A DNA stretch of 6,453 bases from a virus (taxonomy: Duplodnaviria; Heunggongvirae; Uroviricota; Caudoviricetes): the IMG/VR virus record IMGVR_UViG_2713896899_000008; one strand, written 5' to 3'. The notes beneath the pieces were generated by a model. It saw nothing but the letters and a program-made list of their open reading frames with translations. It searched no databases and was not told the origin of the DNA. Position 1 is the first letter of the stretch. Each line of letters starts with the position of its first letter. Below are positions 1,558-5,703 of this stretch, piece after piece. The position numbers and the translations under genes were made by a program.

Positions 1558-1587
1558 GTTAAGTAGAATTGCTGTGGGTGCTTGAGG
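1558..1587 (+). promoter_or_regulatory. hok mRNA 5' element complementary to the 3' end (tac-like)
   Basis: GTTAAGT (1558-1564) and GGGTGCTTGAGG (1576-1587) are antiparallel-complementary to ACTTAAC (1965-1971) and CCTCAACGCACCC (1950-1962, one bulged C), which sit just 5' of the hok terminator. Confidence 0.4.
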
Positions 1588-1744
1588 CTATCTGTCTCAG
1601 GCATGAACACCAACGGCAGATAGAGAAAAGCCCCAGTTAACATTACGCGTCCTGCAGGACGCTTAACATTAATCTGAGGCCAATTTCATGCTAGACACAT
1701 GTAGGTTAGCCTCTTACGTGCCGAAAGGCAAGGAGAAGCAGGCT

Positions 1745-1900
1745 ATGAAGCAGCAAAAGGCGATGTTAATCGCCCTGATCGTCATCTGTTTAACCGTCAT
1801 AGTGACGGCACTGGTAACGAGGAAAGACCTCTGCGAGGTACGAATCCGAACCGACCAGACGGAGGTCGCTGTCTTCACAGCTTATGAACCTGAGGAGTAA
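1745..1900 (+). CDS. hok: Hok/Gef-family type I toxin (51 aa), HokD/RelF-like
   Basis: Product MKQQKAMLIALIVICLTVIVTALVTRKDLCEVRIRTDQTEVAVFTAYEPEE matches the Hok family hallmark (N-terminal TM helix, conserved Cys, C-terminal periplasmic tail) and is near-identical to E. coli HokD as I recall it. SD AAGGAG (1730-1735) at 9-nt spacing. Confidence 0.9.
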   Translation: MKQQKAMLIALIVICLTVIVTALVTRKDLCEVRIRTDQTEVAVFTAYEPEE

Positions 1901-1949
1901 GAGACCAGGCGAGGGAGAAATCCCTCGCCACCTCTGATGAGTCAGGCAT

Positions 1950-1971
1950 CCTCAACGCACCCGCACTTAAC
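1950..1971 (+). promoter_or_regulatory. hok mRNA 3' fold-back element (fbi-like), partner of 1558-1587
   Basis: See the 1558-1587 feature. Position immediately upstream of the terminator hairpin matches the hok-family mRNA architecture. Confidence 0.4.
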
Positions 1972-1995
1972 CCGCTCCGGCGGGTTTTGTTTTTT
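1971..1995 (+). terminator. Rho-independent terminator of the hok transcript
   Basis: Stem CCCGC (1971-1975) / GCGGG (1980-1984) with loop TCCG, followed by TTTTGTTTTTT (1985-1995). A 9-bp GAAA-loop hairpin lies upstream at 1908-1929. Confidence 0.75.
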
Positions 1996-2347: not shown

Positions 2348-3403
2348 GTGCGGGTATTACTTAGACCTGTTCTGGTGCCTGAGCTTGGGCTGGTGGTCCT
2401 TAAGCCGGGCCGTGAATCCATACAGATATTTCATAATCCTCGAGTGCTGGTGGAACCGGAACCAAAAAGCATGCGTAATCTGCCATCCGGAGTCGTTCCT
2501 GCCGTTGGCCAGCCGCTGGCGGAAGACAAAACATTGCCGCCGTTTTTTAGTAACGAACGGGTGATTCGTGCTGCTGGCGGCGTTGGCGCATTGTCTGACT
2601 GGCTATTACGTCATGTTACATCCTGCCAGTGGCCTAATGGCGATTACCATCACACTGAAACAGTCATTCACCGTTATGGTACCGGCGCAATGGTGTTGTG
2701 CTGGCACTGCGACAACCAACTGCGTGACCAGACATCGGAATCACTGGAGCTGCTTGCTCAACAAAATCTGACAGCATGGGTGATTGACGTCATCCGTCAC
2801 GCAATAAGCGGTACGCAGGAGCGGGAATTATCTTTGGCTGAATTATCCTGGTGGGCGCTCTGCAATCAGGTGGCGGATGCGCTACCTGAGTCAGTATTAC
2901 GTCGTTCGCTGGGGTTGCGTGCGGAAAAAATCCGCTCAGTGTACCGTGAAAGCGACATCGTACCGGGAGAGCAGACCGCCACCAGCATACTGAAGCAGCG
3001 CACAAAAAATCTTGCGCCGCTGCCTCACGCCCACCAGCAAAACCCGCCACAGGAAAAGACGGTGGTCAGCATTGCCGTTGATCCGGAGTCACCGGCTCAG
3101 TATCTCCAGCGCCAGAAACCACAACGGGAAGAGATGCCTGTATACACGCGCTGGGTAAAAACGCAGAAATGCATGACGTGCGGTAATCAGGCGGATGATC
3201 CGCATCACATCATTGGTCATGGACTGGGAGGAATGGGAACAAAGGCTGATGATTTGTTTGTTATTCCGCTGTGTCGCAAATGCCATAACGAACTACACGC
3301 CGGAGTAAAAGATTTTGAAGACAAACACGGCAGCCAGTTGTTGTTGCTGATTCGTTTTTTAATGCACGCGAGAAATTCGGGCGTCCTGAAGTGGAAAGCA
3401 TAA
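2348..3403 (+). CDS. DUF968-family protein (YdfU-like) with C-terminal HNH-like zinc-binding nuclease motif
   Basis: GTG 2348 preceded by GGAGG (2339-2343). C-terminus CMTCGNQADDPHHIIGHG...CRKCHNELH has the CxxC...HH...CxxCH spacing of an HNH-type motif. Start is less certain: in-frame GTG 2309 and ATG 2471 are alternatives. Confidence 0.65.
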   Translation: MRVLLRPVLVPELGLVVLKPGRESIQIFHNPRVLVEPEPKSMRNLPSGVVPAVGQPLAEDKTLPPFFSNERVIRAAGGVGALSDWLLRHVTSCQWPNGDYHHTETVIHRYGTGAMVLCWHCDNQLRDQTSESLELLAQQNLTAWVIDVIRHAISGTQERELSLAELSWWALCNQVADALPESVLRRSLGLRAEKIRSVYRESDIVPGEQTATSILKQRTKNLAPLPHAHQQNPPQEKTVVSIAVDPESPAQYLQRQKPQREEMPVYTRWVKTQKCMTCGNQADDPHHIIGHGLGGMGTKADDLFVIPLCRKCHNELHAGVKDFEDKHGSQLLLLIRFLMHARNSGVLKWKA

Positions 3404-3769
3404 ATGACTGAACATATAGAATTTGTTTTGCCTTACCCGCCGTCGGTGAACACCTACTGGCGCCGTCGTGGTGGCGTATATTTTGTATCAAAAGCCGGTG
3501 AGTGTTATCGCCGGGATGTGGCGCTTATTGTTCGCCAGAAGCGACTGAAATTAAATCTGTCCGGTAGGTTGGCAATCAGGATTATTGCAGAGCCACCGGA
3601 TAAGCGCCGCCGCGACCTGGACAATATCCTGAAAGCACCACTGGATGCGCTGACGCATGCCGGACTTCTTATAGACGACGAGCAGTTTGATGAAATCAAT
3701 ATTGTGCGCGGTCAGCTCGTTCCTGGTGGGCGGCTGGGGATAAAAATCACAGAACTGGAGTGCGCATGA
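3404..3769 (+). CDS. rusA: RusA-family Holliday junction resolvase (121 aa)
   Basis: ATG 3404 directly abuts the upstream stop (TAA 3401-3403). Product carries the RusA signature PPDKRRRDLDNILKAPLDALT and a C-terminal GGRL motif, closely paralleling E. coli RusA. Confidence 0.88.
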   Translation: MTEHIEFVLPYPPSVNTYWRRRGGVYFVSKAGECYRRDVALIVRQKRLKLNLSGRLAIRIIAEPPDKRRRDLDNILKAPLDALTHAGLLIDDEQFDEINIVRGQLVPGGRLGIKITELECA

Positions 3770-4455
3770 ATAGCCAGTATTTACAGTTTGTGCGTGAGCA
3801 GCTCATTATCGCCACCGCTGATTTGAGTGGGGCAACAAAAGGTCAGCTTGAAGCCTGGCAGGAGAATGCCATGTTCGATACAGGGCGTTACAGGCGTAAA
3901 AAAATCCGGTACCGGGATGAGGTGACTGGAAAAATGATAACGCGGGATAATCCACCAATCCCGGGAAAACAATCACTGGCGAAGGGGACGTCAATTCCTC
4001 TGGTCAGTCCGGTTGAGTTTTCGACATCATCGTGGCGGCGGGCTGTTCTGTCTCTTGAAGAACATCATAAAGCCTGGTTGTTGTGGTGTTACAGCGGGAA
4101 TATTTGTTGGGAATATCAGATCGCGATAACACAGTGGGCGTGGAATGAATTTAATACTCAATCCGGTACCAGAAAAATTGCAGGGAAAACGCAGGAACGC
4201 CTGAAAAAATTAATCTGGCTGGCGGCGCAGGCAGTAAAAGCAGAACTTTTTGGTGGGGAAGGTTATGAATACCAGGAGCTGGCATTACTGGCGGGAGTGA
4301 CAACTAAAAACTGGTCCAAAACATTTACTCGTCACTGGGTTGCAATGAAACACATTTTTTACCGACTGGATAGTGAGGCTTTATTGTTTGTAATGAGAAC
4401 ACGTTCAAAACAAAAGGTGGCATTTTCAAAGCAAAGTGTTGCAAAAGTAGATTGA
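3766..4455 (+). CDS. Putative late-gene antiterminator Q (QuuQ/phage-82-type, not the lambda zinc-finger type)
   Basis: ATG 3766 overlaps the rusA stop (ATGA). It sits immediately upstream of a promoter-terminator pair and the lysis cassette, the canonical Q position. Assignment is mainly positional; no zinc-finger motif. Confidence 0.55.
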   Translation: MNSQYLQFVREQLIIATADLSGATKGQLEAWQENAMFDTGRYRRKKIRYRDEVTGKMITRDNPPIPGKQSLAKGTSIPLVSPVEFSTSSWRRAVLSLEEHHKAWLLWCYSGNICWEYQIAITQWAWNEFNTQSGTRKIAGKTQERLKKLIWLAAQAVKAELFGGEGYEYQELALLAGVTTKNWSKTFTRHWVAMKHIFYRLDSEALLFVMRTRSKQKVAFSKQSVAKVD

Positions 4456-4467
4456 AAGGCATATATT
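4439..4467 (+). promoter_or_regulatory. PR'-like late promoter (TTGCAA, 17 nt spacer, TATATT)
   Basis: -35 TTGCAA (4439-4444) and -10 TATATT (4462-4467), overlapping the Q stop codon. Predicted start near 4474, about 50-70 nt upstream of the tR'-like terminator. Confidence 0.45.
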
Positions 4468-4521
4468 TCATGCAAATCTGATATTTTGCCGATTTTGTAC
4501 GTGATGGCAAAAGCAAACAAA

Positions 4522-4547
4522 ACCCGCCCACAAGCGGGTTTTTTTTG
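4522..4547 (+). terminator. tR'-like intrinsic terminator
   Basis: Stem ACCCGC (4522-4527) / GCGGGT (4534-4539), loop CCACAA, followed by an 8-T run ending at 4546. Confidence 0.75.
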
Positions 4548-4628
4548 TGCCACTTATCTCGGATAGACATGGTGAATGCGCTGGTGGAGGAAGTAAGGGT
4601 GATTTTTAATCAGGTGATTTTTGAATGC

Positions 4629-4657
4629 TTGCAACATTGATTTCGTAACGTTATTAT
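4629..4657 (+). promoter_or_regulatory. Sigma70-type promoter of the tRNA array (TTGCAA, 17 nt spacer, TATTAT)
   Basis: -35 at 4629-4634 and -10 at 4652-4657; the first tRNA starts at 4667, about 10 nt downstream. Confidence 0.5.
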
Positions 4658-4666
4658 CCTGCACCC

Positions 4667-4742
4667 GGCCCTTTAGCTCAGTGGTGAGAGCGAGCGACTC
4701 ATAATCGCCAGGTCGCTGGTTCAAATCCAGCAAGGGCCACCA
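4667..4742 (+). tRNA. tRNA with CAU anticodon, ileX/ileZ-like (tRNA-Ile2, lysidine type; Met not excluded by anticodon alone)
   Basis: 76 nt cloverleaf: acceptor GGCCCTT/AAGGGCC, D-stem GCTC/GAGC, anticodon loop CTCATAA, T-loop TTCAAAT, A73, encoded CCA. Overall sequence resembles E. coli ileX. Confidence 0.88.
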
Positions 4743-4743
4743 A

Positions 4744-4820
4744 CCGCCACTAGCTCATCAGGAAAGAGCGTCAACCCTTTAAGTTGAGTGTGCGAGGTTC
4801 GAGTCCCCGGTGGCGGTCCA
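4744..4820 (+). tRNA. Atypical tRNA, anticodon loop CCTTTAA (nominal anticodon UUU, Lys)
   Basis: 77 nt cloverleaf: acceptor CCGCCAC/GTGGCGG (C1:G72), D-stem GCTC/GAGC, anticodon stem TCAAC/GTTGA, T-arm CGAGG-TTCGAGT-CCCCG, U73, encoded CCA. C at position 33 and U73 are unusual for a Lys tRNA. Confidence 0.6.
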
Positions 4821-4822
4821 GT

Positions 4823-4898
<76 letters not shown>

Positions 4899-4901
4899 TA
4901 T

Positions 4902-4976
<75 letters not shown>

Positions 4977-5083
4977 GTATTTATCTGCATATTTCCTTTT
5001 GAGTCCCGTTTTGTTAGAGGTATTGGGCTGTTGACGGGGCTGATATCCACTCTCCACCTTTCAGGGAGATAGGATTTAAGGAG

Positions 5084-5121
5084 CCAACCGGTTAGAGTCT
5101 GCTTTGTTCCTAACCAGTTGG
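5084..5121. terminator. Inverted-repeat hairpin between the converging tRNA operon (+) and YagU-like gene (-)
   Basis: CCAACCGGTTAG (5084-5095) and CTAACCAGTTGG (5110-5121) pair at 11 of 12 positions with a 14-nt loop. A T-rich tract follows on the + strand only. Confidence 0.3.
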
Positions 5122-5139: not shown

Positions 5140-5703
5140 TTAGTTTTTATTCGCCGTCCATTTACCACAAATTGGTCTGGAGAAGATTGCCAGAATGGCA
5201 ATAAAGGATATTTCAATTGAAACAGACCAGCATATATGTCCAATCAGTTCGCTCCAGAATTCATAGCCGTTTAGATTCCATAGCCACCCTCTTTCATGGC
5301 CGGGAAGATACGCGGGAAATCTGAAGCCCAGCGCGGGTATTAAAATACCATGCATGACTAATGTAATAAGAATTCCATATACAGCCCCATACCACATGCG
5401 GACTCGTGGAATAAAAACAGACAGGTATATGTATACAAAGGCAAAAATGAAACTAAAAAGCCAATGATAGAGCATAACAGCTCCGGGAATTGTTACTCCC
5501 TGGTAAATGTAATCCAGCGAGTGTGAATTTATTCCCAGAAAACCCAACCAGGCGTCGATATTCATTGCTGGTGGAGAAATTTCTCCGGCCATTCTTGGGG
5601 GCATGTTAGCTTCAGTTCCTGATTTCACCAGAGAGCTGATCGCGCCACCGACCAGTGTTGCCCAAAGTATGATTTTTAGATTTACGCTATTCCATTTACA
5701 CAT
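5140..5703 (-). CDS. DUF1440/YagU-family inner membrane protein (187 aa)
   Basis: Minus-strand ATG at 5703-5701 is preceded by GAGG at 6-nt spacing; stop is TAA (complement of 5140-5142). Product shares blocks with E. coli YagU as recalled (VKSGTEANMPPR, MWYG, MHGILIPALG, SELIGHICWSVSIEI). The 280-aa ORF-track version is rejected as an N-terminal extension. Confidence 0.62.
   Translation of the reverse strand: MCKWNSVNLKIILWATLVGGAISSLVKSGTEANMPPRMAGEISPPAMNIDAWLGFLGINSHSLDYIYQGVTIPGAVMLYHWLFSFIFAFVYIYLSVFIPRVRMWYGAVYGILITLVMHGILIPALGFRFPAYLPGHERGWLWNLNGYEFWSELIGHICWSVSIEISFIAILAIFSRPICGKWTANKN

What the first reader, a model, noticed from the sequence alone, without database searches (positions are those of the whole stretch)
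4439..4547. Compact PR'/tR'-like late control unit with a short leader transcript
A good sigma70 promoter (TTGCAA, 17 nt, TATATT) overlaps the end of the Q-like gene and is followed within about 60 nt by a strong intrinsic terminator. This matches the late promoter plus tR' of lambdoid phages, where Q modifies RNA polymerase to read through this and all downstream terminators. It supports the Q assignment and implies that the tRNAs, the moron and the lysis genes lie in the Q-dependent late transcript.
Basis: partly seen in the sequence, partly recalled or inferred. Interest (0 to 1): 0.4.

Follow-up and report, generated by a model that had tools for sequence, protein, structure and literature searches.

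The report
Phage-82-type late promoter, pause site, terminator
This is the ordinary late-gene switch of a phage-82-type E. coli prophage: a promoter, a polymerase pause site and a terminator just after the Q antiterminator gene, which should make a roughly 73-base leader RNA related to the Salmonella small RNA IsrJ.

Summary
TTGCAA (4439-4444), a 17-nt spacer and TATATT (4462-4467) overlap the end of the Q gene (3766-4455). The window's strongest intrinsic terminator follows (stem 4519-4542, U-tract 4539-4546).

The hexamers alone are no better than chance. Comparison makes the case:
- Q belongs to Pfam PF06323, the Q82 family.
- In 137 of 150 related loci, one composite motif sits once on the + strand at the 3' end of Q (in Gifsy-1, next to isrJ): -35, 17 nt, -10, 11 nt, then an extended -10-like TGnTAnnnT.
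- A terminator follows in 61 of 66 loci, with unrelated stem sequences.
- With +1 at 4474, the pause element matches published features of phage 82 pR'.
- The same unit in Salmonella Gifsy-1 is the detected 74-nt sRNA IsrJ; the window's leader is a diverged relative, below Rfam's threshold.

- The tRNA cassette has its own conserved promoter-like site (4629-4657).
- The moron (a YagU-family gene) is on the minus strand.

This is an unannotated new member of a known kind. Promoter activity, pausing and Q-dependent read-through are inferred, not tested.

The parts
3766..4455 (+). Q antiterminator gene, Q82 family (229 aa); start overlaps the rusA stop (ATGA)
   Evidence: Pfam PF06323 E 1.3e-91. 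PF06323 is the Q82 family (PMC9388147). It is 73% identical to phage 434 Q, annotated 'Q82-like', and 67% to Gifsy-1 Q, annotated as similar to REGQ_BP82.
4439..4444 (+). -35 hexamer TTGCAA of the late promoter, inside the last codons of Q
   Evidence: TTGCAA is kept in nearly all (about 50) of 55 unique family sequences. The Ala codon is GCA in 54/55, and the preceding Leu, Ile or Val codon always ends in TT. In the rest of Q, GCA is 23% of Ala codons, CTT 14% of Leu and ATT 30% of Ile.
4445..4461 (+). 17-nt spacer holding the last codons and stop codon of Q; probable location of the Q-binding element (position inferred only)
   Evidence: The spacer is 17 nt in all 60 matching loci. The literature places the QBE between -35 and -10, and within -31 to +30 of 82 pR' (PMC4914094). 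The QBE sequence is not identified here.
4462..4467 (+). -10 hexamer TATATT
   Evidence: A-11 and T-7 are conserved (consensus tAtATT) across the family.
4474..4474 (+). Predicted transcription start (+1), uncertain by about 3 nt
   Evidence: It is the seventh base after the -10. This numbering puts GCC at +15-17 and T at +25, as published for 82 pR' (PMC5001585). The Rfam isrJ model begins 3 nt further upstream.
4479..4490 (+). Sigma70-dependent pause element: extended -10 TG (+6/+7), -10-like TATTTT (+9 to +14), discriminator GCC (+15 to +17)
   Evidence: TGnTAnnnT lies at a fixed 10-11 nt after the -10 in 60 of 67 loci. It fits the published description of 82 pR'.
4498..4499 (+). Predicted pause positions +25/+26 (T, A)
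   Evidence: By analogy with 82 pR', which pauses at +25/26 with U at +25 (PMC5001585). Inferred, not tested.
4484..4512 (+). Leader hairpin 1: UUUUGCC (4484-4490) pairs with GGCAAAA (4506-4512), plus three inner pairs
   Evidence: RNAfold. Compensated versions occur in other lineages. Cognate versus non-cognate arm test: 2 of 5000 permutations did as well. It is present in the Rfam isrJ consensus structure and absent from 8 short-leader loci.
4519..4546 (+). Intrinsic terminator tR': stem 4519-4542, loop CCACAA, 8-U tract 4539-4546; also reads as a terminator on the minus strand
   Evidence: both strands. Stem energy -12.4 kcal/mol. A terminator follows at +48 to +125 in 61 of 66 loci, with several unrelated stem sequences. 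Five of 7 consensus pairs show compensatory changes.
4629..4657 (+). Separate promoter-like site of the tRNA cassette: TTGCAA, 17 nt, TATTAT, then the GC-rich CCTGCACCC before the tRNA at 4667
   Evidence: Both hexamers are identical in an Stx2 phage with a Q21-type Q, where homology begins about 65 nt before ileZ.
4667..4976 (+). Four tRNA genes (CAT, called Met by ARAGORN and Ile by RefSeq; Lys-TTT; Thr-TGT; Gly-TCC) downstream of tR'
5987..6035 (+). Two further + strand intrinsic terminators (5987-6006 and 6014-6035) between the tRNAs and the lysis genes; a third lies at 6358-6373, before the holin start at 6419
   Evidence: The holin gene essD is annotated at this position in a 99.5% identical genome.

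Best explanation
Window 4439-4546 is the late-gene control unit of a phage-82-type lambdoid prophage of E. coli. It holds promoter pR', a sigma70-dependent promoter-proximal pause element, a short leader and the intrinsic terminator tR'.

Proposed mechanism:
1. Sigma70 RNA polymerase starts at about 4474 from TTGCAA-17-TATATT.
2. Sigma70 stays on the polymerase and rebinds the extended -10-like TGATATTTT at +6 to +14. With the GCC at +15-17, this stalls the enzyme at about +25/+26 (4498-4499).
3. Without Q, the polymerase escapes the pause and terminates at 4539-4546. It releases an RNA of about 73 nt with a free 5' end, an internal hairpin and a terminator hairpin with a U tail. This is the counterpart of lambda 6S RNA and of Salmonella IsrJ.
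4. After induction, the Q82-family protein encoded just upstream binds promoter DNA and loads onto the paused complex. The polymerase then reads through tR' and through the later + strand terminators (5987-6035, 6358-6373) into the holin and lysis genes.

Shown here: the sequence elements, their conservation and fixed spacing, DNA-level constraint inside the Q coding sequence, terminator turnover, and homology to the isrJ locus.

Inferred: promoter activity, the exact start, pausing, Q binding and Q-dependent read-through.
For: - Q belongs to PF06323, the Q82 family. Relatives are annotated as Q82-like.
- The composite promoter-plus-pause motif occurs once in the window against 0.00 expected. 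It occurs once on the + strand in 137 of 150 related loci, at the Q 3' end or, in Gifsy-1, next to isrJ. The spacer is always 17 nt, and TG lies 10-11 nt after the -10.
- The -35 is kept by synonymous-codon choice: GCA 54/55, CTT 23/23 and ATT 29/29, against 23%, 14% and 30% elsewhere in Q. The amino acid at the preceding codon varies (I, L or V).
- An intrinsic terminator follows in 61 of 66 loci, ending at +48 to +125, with unrelated stems and compensatory pairs.
- With +1 at 4474, the window has TG at +6/+7, the -10-like hexamer at +9 to +14, GCC at +15-17 and T at +25. These are the features published for 82 pR' (PMC5001585).
- In Gifsy-1, the same promoter, pause element and terminator coincide with Rfam isrJ at 100 bits. 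IsrJ is a 74-nt RNA detected by primer extension and expressed from its own promoter on a plasmid (PMC2330248).
- isrJ scores above Rfam's threshold directly after Q in 5 of 20 sampled loci.
- Three more + strand terminators precede the holin gene.
Against: - No expression data exist for this window. Every functional step is inferred.
- The hexamers match the consensus only 9 of 12, which alone is at chance level.
- I could not obtain the actual phage 82 pR' sequence, only its verbal description, so near-identity to 82 is unproven.
- The Q-binding element was not located.
- The window's leader scores only 24.5 bits against Rfam isrJ (threshold 37, E 0.29).
- The mapped IsrJ 5' end is about 3 nt upstream of the start I infer.
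Confidence: 0.9

Rival explanations
1. The unit is mainly a small-RNA gene. The roughly 73-nt RNA would be a stable, Hfq-binding, trans-acting regulator of host or phage mRNAs in the lysogen, as shown for StxS and suggested for IsrJ. Late-gene control would be secondary. This does not exclude the best explanation.
For: - The leader has the usual sRNA layout: a free 5' end, an internal hairpin, an A-rich linker and a terminator with 8 U.
- Its Gifsy-1 homologue IsrJ is a detected RNA. Rfam lists it as Hfq-binding, and its deletion lowers invasion and effector translocation (PMC2330248).
- The pR' leader of Stx phages is a proven Hfq sRNA (PMC7547250).
- Hairpin 1 is maintained by compensatory change, with G-U pairs that fit only the + strand RNA.
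Against: - The most conserved bases are the -35, the -10 and the pause element. These are DNA signals for polymerase and sigma70, not an RNA seed.
- The region downstream of +20 is replaced freely between lineages, and 8 loci lack hairpin 1 altogether.
- No target, Hfq binding or abundance data exist for this RNA.
Confidence: 0.25
2. The promoter-like hexamers are a chance match. The hairpin would then simply terminate the early operon that ends with Q, or terminate minus-strand transcripts coming from the moron. There would be no late promoter here.
For: - The hexamer match is at chance level in the window.
- The hairpin also scores as a terminator on the minus strand, and the consensus scan found no other minus-strand terminator between the YagU-family gene and it.
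Against: - The -35, the 17-nt spacer, the -10 and the pause element keep fixed spacing in 137 of 150 loci, with no such motif expected by chance.
- Synonymous-codon constraint holds the -35 in place.
- In Gifsy-1 the same unit is separated from Q by an inserted module and still yields an RNA, also from its own promoter on a plasmid.
Confidence: 0.03
3. The real Q-dependent late promoter is the second site, 4629-4657 (TTGCAA-17-TATTAT), just before the tRNAs. On this view 4439-4547 would be only a terminator region.
For: It matches the consensus equally well (9 of 12), lies upstream of all late genes, and is highly conserved.
Against: - It has no -10-like pause element in its first 25 transcribed bases. 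Transcription would start 2-3 nt before a mature tRNA.
- It is shared with Stx2 phages that carry an unrelated Q21-type Q and their own promoter and terminator directly after that Q. It therefore cannot be the recognition site of a Q82-type protein.
- The homology block travels with the tRNA cassette.
Confidence: 0.03

Closest known systems
Phage 82 late control region (82 pR', promoter-proximal pause at +25/26, Q82)
   Same: - Same Q protein family (PF06323).
- Promoter directly after Q.
- Extended -10-like pause element at +6 to +14, GCC at +15-17 and T at +25, as described for 82 pR' (PMC5001585).
- An intrinsic terminator shortly downstream.
   Different: - I could compare only with the published description, not with the 82 sequence itself.
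- Identity of the window's Q to 82 Q is unknown. It is 73% to the 'Q82-like' Q of phage 434.
- Phage 434 has GTA in place of GCC and lacks hairpin 1, so family members differ in detail.
IsrJ sRNA of Salmonella prophage Gifsy-1 (Rfam RF01393)
   Same: - Same promoter hexamers, 17-nt spacer, pause element, internal hairpin position and terminator.
- The Rfam hit in the window spans 4471-4543, the whole model and the whole predicted leader.
- IsrJ is an experimentally detected 74-nt RNA.
   Different: - The window scores 24.5 bits, below the family threshold of 37.
- The arms of hairpin 1 differ (UUUUGCC/GGCAAAA against GUCG/CGAC), and so does the terminator stem.
- In Gifsy-1 an isrK, C4-like RNA and anti-repressor module separates Q from the unit. 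Here the unit overlaps the end of Q.
- None of the papers I read describes IsrJ as a pR' leader.
Lambda pR' - 6S RNA - tR'
   Same: Same logic: a constitutive sigma70 promoter after Q, a sigma70-dependent pause at a -10-like repeat, a short terminated RNA in lysogens, and Q loading at the pause (PMC4914094; PMC7547250).
   Different: - Lambda Q belongs to an unrelated protein family, PF03589.
- The lambda pause element lies at +1 to +6 with the pause at +16/17.
- The lambda leader is about 193 nt (termination at +193), against about 73 nt here.
StxS, the pR' leader sRNA of Stx1/Stx2a phages
   Same: It is a prematurely terminated pR' transcript made in lysogens, upstream of a tRNA cassette and the late genes. 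It shows that such leaders can act as Hfq-dependent regulators (PMC7547250).
   Different: - It is described in Stx1 and Stx2a phages and shows no sequence relationship to this leader.
- It is a 258-nt primary leader processed by RNase E to 74 nt.
- No Hfq, processing or target data exist for the window's RNA.

Membership tests
Q82-type late control unit (phage 82 pR' / pause / terminator) | Cognate antiterminator gene of the Q82 family (Pfam PF06323) immediately upstream | tested here: met
   PF06323 E 1.3e-91, residues 4-218 against profile positions 1-215 of 220. Family assignment from PMC9388147.
Q82-type late control unit (phage 82 pR' / pause / terminator) | Sigma70-type promoter at or just after the 3' end of Q | tested here: met
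   TTGCAA-17-TATATT at 4439-4467. Its position and spacing are conserved in 137 of 150 loci. Codon-level constraint holds the -35. Promoter activity was not measured.
Q82-type late control unit (phage 82 pR' / pause / terminator) | -10-like pause-inducing element with extended -10 in the initial transcribed region, followed by a G/C-rich discriminator at +15-17 | tested here: met
   TG at 4479-4480, TATTTT at 4482-4487 and GCC at 4488-4490 fit the description in PMC5001585. The element is conserved in 60 of 67 loci.
Q82-type late control unit (phage 82 pR' / pause / terminator) | Sigma70-dependent pause at +25/+26 | not testable with these tools
   T at 4498 matches the U at +25 of 82 pR'. Confirmation needs in vitro transcription.
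Q82-type late control unit (phage 82 pR' / pause / terminator) | Q-binding element in the promoter DNA | not testable with these tools
Only its rough position (-31 to +30) is known.
Q82-type late control unit (phage 82 pR' / pause / terminator) | Intrinsic terminator shortly downstream that Q-modified polymerase reads through | tested here: inconclusive
   The terminator is present and conserved in position. Q-dependent read-through was not tested.
Rfam isrJ (RF01393) | Covariance-model score at or above the curated gathering score (37 bits) | tested here: not met
   The window's 4471-4543 scores 24.5 bits, E 0.29, over the full model length. Gifsy-1 scores 100 bits. Five of 20 related loci score 38-94 bits at the same position after Q.
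Rfam isrJ (RF01393) | Same genomic unit by descent (same promoter, same 5' leader sequence, same architecture) | tested here: met
   Alignment A4 shows TTGCAAAA invariant, the -10 nearly so (TATATT or CATATT), and the pause element nearly invariant (AAATCTGATAT in most rows), followed by a hairpin and a terminator.
pR' leader sRNAs (lambda 6S RNA, StxS class) | Short RNA accumulates in lysogens; Hfq binding; trans targets | not testable with these tools
   Only precedent is available (PMC7547250; PMC2330248).

The most novel reading that the evidence does not exclude
The leader may be more than a by-product. Across the Q82 family, the pR' leader (the IsrJ family in a wide sense) would be a stable, Hfq-associated small RNA made constitutively by lysogens. 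Its free 5' end is the RNA copy of the conserved pause element (AAAUCUGAUAU). Its internal hairpin, kept by compensatory changes and built on the GCC of the pause element, would have a function of its own, either in RNA stability or Hfq presentation, or in post-pause handling of the Q/NusA-loaded polymerase. About 16% of complete E. coli genomes (887 of 5426) would then carry this previously unrecognised regulator.
Probability: 0.25. Interest if true: 0.5.

Novelty: new member of a known kind. Interest (0 to 1): 0.25.

Why it matters
This adds little to basic biology, because the mechanism is the textbook lambdoid late switch. The practical value is annotation:
- The unit is unannotated in the records I inspected.
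- A match covering at least 80% of window 4300-4700 is present in 887 of 5426 complete E. coli genomes, O157:H7 among them.
- It defines where late transcription of these prophages starts and what must be read through to reach the lysis genes.

Two by-products are of modest interest:
- The Salmonella sRNA IsrJ can be read as the terminated leader of a Q82-type late promoter. That gives IsrJ a mechanistic origin and predicts relatives in many enterobacterial prophages.
- The family-wide alignment gives a natural mutational map of the Q82-type promoter and pause site. This is the one Q family still without a solved structure.

Tried and rejected
- Full-text search for fragments of the leader or promoter sequence, to recover the published 82 pR' sequence, found only unrelated papers. 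The two Roberts and Hochschild lab papers hold no sequence in the text, and no supplements are held.
- The PDB sequence search with Q found no antiterminator; the only hit was a weak match to a phage endolysin.
- HnrS, a multicopy 66-nt prophage sRNA in EHEC (PMC13502914), was considered as the identity of this RNA. I rejected it provisionally. [quoted passage not shown] The expected complement (CUUCU) is absent from the leader. The HnrS sequence is not in the held text.
- IsrK was considered because of a 22.7-bit hit. In Gifsy-1 it belongs to a separate inserted C4/anti-repressor module, so the resemblance is probably only terminator-like.
- RNAalifold on a MAFFT alignment recovered only the terminator, not hairpin 1, because the 3' arm sits in different registers. 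I used shuffles and a cognate versus non-cognate test instead.
- A CII-type TTGC-N6-TTGC site on the minus strand (4431-4444, a possible paQ) was examined. No usable -10 lies at the right distance, and the spacing is not conserved.
- My first motif regular expression used the wrong gap and found nothing. It was corrected.

Full report
**1. What is in the sequence**

The window reads as the late-early junction of a lambdoid prophage of E. coli.
- On the + strand: a hok/sok module, a DUF968 (YdfU-like) gene, rusA, a Q gene, four tRNA genes, and the start of a holin gene at 6419. A YagU-family gene lies on the minus strand.
- The Q stop codon is at 4453-4455. The -35 therefore lies in the last codons of Q and the stop codon lies in the spacer.
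- The terminator has its stem at 4519-4542 and eight T at 4539-4546. It tops the terminator list of the consensus scan, and it also scores on the minus strand.
- RNA 4474-4552 folds into two hairpins at -25.3 kcal/mol, z -3.4.

**2. Is it more than chance?**

The hexamers alone are not. The scan found 8 sites of this quality in the window, against 9.1 +/- 2.7 in shuffles. The case rests on comparison with related loci.

**3. The upstream gene**

ORF 3766-4455 matches Pfam PF06323 at E 1.3e-91 over the whole profile. PMC9388147 names PF06323 as the Q82 family, one of three unrelated Q families. Its relatives include phage 434 Q (73% identity, annotated 'Q82-like') and Gifsy-1 Q (67%, annotated as similar to REGQ_BP82). 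No member has a solved structure detectable by sequence.

**4.

I collected 80 close viral loci, 65 loci from different enterobacterial species (Q identity 34-93%), and phage records.
- In 60 of 67 diverse loci the same arrangement follows or overlaps the Q stop codon. It is TTGCnn, exactly 17 nt, a -10 hexamer with A at position 2 and T at position 6, then 10-11 nt, then TGnTAnnnT.
- As a fixed pattern it matches the window once, against 0.00 expected.
- It matches 137 of 150 fetched loci exactly once on the + strand, at the Q 3' end or, in Gifsy-1, next to isrJ. There is one stray match in all that DNA.
- The non-matching loci either end right after Q or carry single-base changes in the motif.

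The -35 is conserved at the DNA level, beyond what the protein needs.
- The Ala codon is GCA in 54 of 55 unique sequences.
- The preceding residue varies (I, L or V), but its codon always ends in TT (ATT 29/29, CTT 23/23).
- In the rest of the same genes, GCA is 23% of Ala codons, CTT 14% of Leu and ATT 30% of Ile.

**5. Fit to the published 82 pR'**

PMC5001585 describes 82 pR' as having:
- a -10-like pause-inducing element close to the consensus, with an extended -10;
- a discriminator GCC at +15-17;
- an AT-rich stretch before the pause;
- U at +25, with pausing at +25/+26.

Taking +1 as 4474 (the seventh base after the -10), the window has:
- TG at +6/+7;
- TATTTT at +9 to +14;
- GCC at +15-17;
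- GATTTTG at +18 to +24;
- T at +25.

All the described features fit. I could not obtain the 82 sequence itself, so this is agreement with a description and not an alignment.

**6. The terminator**

A GC-rich hairpin with a T-rich tail follows in 61 of 66 anchored loci. It ends between +48 and +125, mostly +48 to +90.
- The stems fall into several unrelated sequence types, for example AACCCGCC/GGCGGGTT, GAGCCTCGCC/GCGGGGCTT, AAGCCCGAGG/CCTTGGGCTT and AGCCCCGG/CTGGGGCT. The position is therefore conserved while the sequence is replaced.
- Five of the 7 consensus pairs show compensatory changes.
- Two decaying copies (E. coli ECMA0423 and S. flexneri) carry a stem mutation and a 1-nt deletion.

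**7. Link to a detected RNA**

A permissive Rfam scan matched 4471-4543 to isrJ (RF01393) over the full model, at 24.5 bits. The threshold is 37 and the E-value 0.29.
- In Gifsy-1, isrJ scores 100 bits at a site immediately preceded by TTGCAA-17-TATATT and containing AAATCTGATATCGTCGCC. That is the same promoter and pause element.
- There, an isrK, C4-like RNA and anti-repressor module lies between Q and this unit. A remnant of the usual Q 3' end (TTGCAAAACTGGATTAA) is still attached to the promoter.
- IsrJ was detected as a 74-nt RNA by primer extension, and it was also made from its own promoter on a plasmid (PMC2330248).
- In 20 sampled genome loci, isrJ passes the threshold in five, always at 3206-3280, directly after Q.
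- IsrJ is therefore the terminated leader of a Q82-type late promoter, and the window's leader is a diverged relative.
- None of the papers I read states this.
- The Rfam model starts 3 nt upstream of my +1, so the start site is uncertain by about that much.

**8. A second hairpin in the leader**

In 44 unique 'long' leaders, a hairpin lies between the pause element and the terminator. Its 5' arm includes the GCC discriminator. In the window it pairs 4484-4490 with 4506-4512.
- Different lineages carry compensated versions: UUUUGCC/GGCAAAA, ACUUUGCC/GGUAAAGU, UGCCA/UGGCA, AUGCUGCC/GGCGGCAU, UGCCAA/UUGGCA, GUGCC/GGCAC and UGCCAUCA/UGGUGGCA. A weak GUCG/CGAC version occurs in the IsrJ type.
- Three versions use G-U pairs, which work only in the + strand RNA.
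- Among 22 representatives, 5' arms pair better with their own 3' regions than with those of other lineages. The summed energy is -209.8 against -177.6 +/- 9.4, and 2 of 5000 permutations did as well.
- Eight short leaders, phage 434 among them, lack the hairpin, so it is not essential for Q action.
- Its function is unknown.

**9. What lies downstream**

- A second promoter-like site lies at 4629-4657: TTGCAA-17-TATTAT, followed by a GC-rich discriminator. It ends 9 nt before the first tRNA.
  - Both hexamers and the surrounding 65 nt are shared with an Stx2 phage.
  - That phage has an unrelated, shorter Q, with its own promoter and terminator right after it.
  - The site therefore belongs to the tRNA cassette and probably gives Q-independent tRNA expression.
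- The moron is a YagU-family (DUF1440) gene on the minus strand. Late transcription would cross it antisense.

The broader point holds. Three more + strand terminators (5987-6006, 6014-6035 and 6358-6373) stand before the holin gene, so processive antitermination would be needed to reach it.

**10. Mechanism, and what is shown versus inferred**

- Shown: the elements, their fixed geometry, selection on them, terminator turnover, and homology to a locus that yields a detected RNA.
- Inferred from established knowledge of Q82 and lambda Q (PMC4914094, PMC5001585, PMC9388147): constitutive initiation, a sigma70-dependent pause at about +25, Q loading there with help from NusA, and read-through of tR' and the later terminators.
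- The Q-binding element could not be located.

**11. Comparison and novelty**

This is a member of the phage 82 type of late control unit. It works like lambda pR'/6S RNA/tR' and like the Stx-phage pR'/StxS unit, but with a different Q family. By score it does not qualify as Rfam isrJ, although it is the same unit by descent.

It is not a new kind of element. It is unannotated and widespread: 887 of 5426 complete E. coli genomes have a match covering at least 80% of window 4300-4700. The IsrJ connection and the covarying leader hairpin are the only parts that go slightly beyond what I found stated.

**12. Dead ends**

These are listed under 'tried and rejected'.

Noticed in passing
window 4629-4657 (and L148 1228-1256): Promoter-like TTGCAA-17-TATTAT with the GC-rich CCTGCACCC before tRNA 4667. 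Both hexamers are identical in an Stx2 phage with a different Q type, and homology starts about 65 nt before the tRNA. The tRNA cassette seems to carry its own stable-RNA-type promoter.
   Followed up: partly
window 4667-4742: ARAGORN calls this tRNA-Met (CAT). RefSeq annotates the same gene as tRNA-Ile, like ileZ of Stx phages, which implies a lysidine-modified anticodon.
   Followed up: partly
window 5140-5703 (minus strand): The moron is a YagU-family (DUF1440) membrane protein gene on the minus strand. The consensus scan finds no minus-strand terminator between it and the reverse reading of tR' (4542-4519). Its transcript may therefore run antisense across the four tRNA genes and stop at the bidirectional tR'.
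   Followed up: partly
window 4484-4512: A leader hairpin whose 5' arm contains the GCC of the pause element. Other lineages carry compensated versions, with G-U pairs that fit only the + strand RNA. Eight short-leader loci lack it, and its function is unknown.
   Followed up: partly
L150 (Gifsy-1) 4178-5121: An isrK, C4-like antisense RNA, orf45 and anti-repressor module is inserted between Q and the late promoter. A remnant of the normal Q 3' end (TTGCAAAACTGGATTAA) stays in front of isrJ. IsrJ is thus the pR' leader of Gifsy-1, which the papers I read do not say.
   Followed up: yes
window 4431-4444 (minus strand): TTGCAACACTTTGC fits the CII-binding consensus TTGC-N6-TTGC and overlaps the palindromic -35. 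The phage 434 record annotates the same spot as paQ. I found no good -10 at the right distance, and the spacing differs in other family members.
   Followed up: partly
window 1576-1990: A hok/sok type I toxin-antitoxin module (Pfam HOK_GEF; Rfam sok at 115 bits). A weak isrK-like match lies at 1909-1990 (28 bits against a threshold of 50), next to the terminator at 1969-1986.
   Followed up: no
L083, L084 (E. coli ECMA0423, S. flexneri) 3173-3290: These copies have a 1-nt deletion between the -10 and the pause element, TGATAC in place of TGATAT, a G-to-T change in the terminator stem, and an altered Q 3' end. They look like decaying prophage copies of the same unit.
   Followed up: no
window 5987-6035, 6358-6373: A cluster of + strand intrinsic terminators lies between the moron and the holin start at 6419. 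The first two are in tandem, directly upstream of the divergently oriented moron.
   Followed up: no
window 4510-4483 (minus strand): A weak promoter-like site (TTGCCA-16-CAAAAT) points back into Q and is formed by the 3' arm of leader hairpin 1. It is not conserved, because the arm sequences vary.
   Followed up: no
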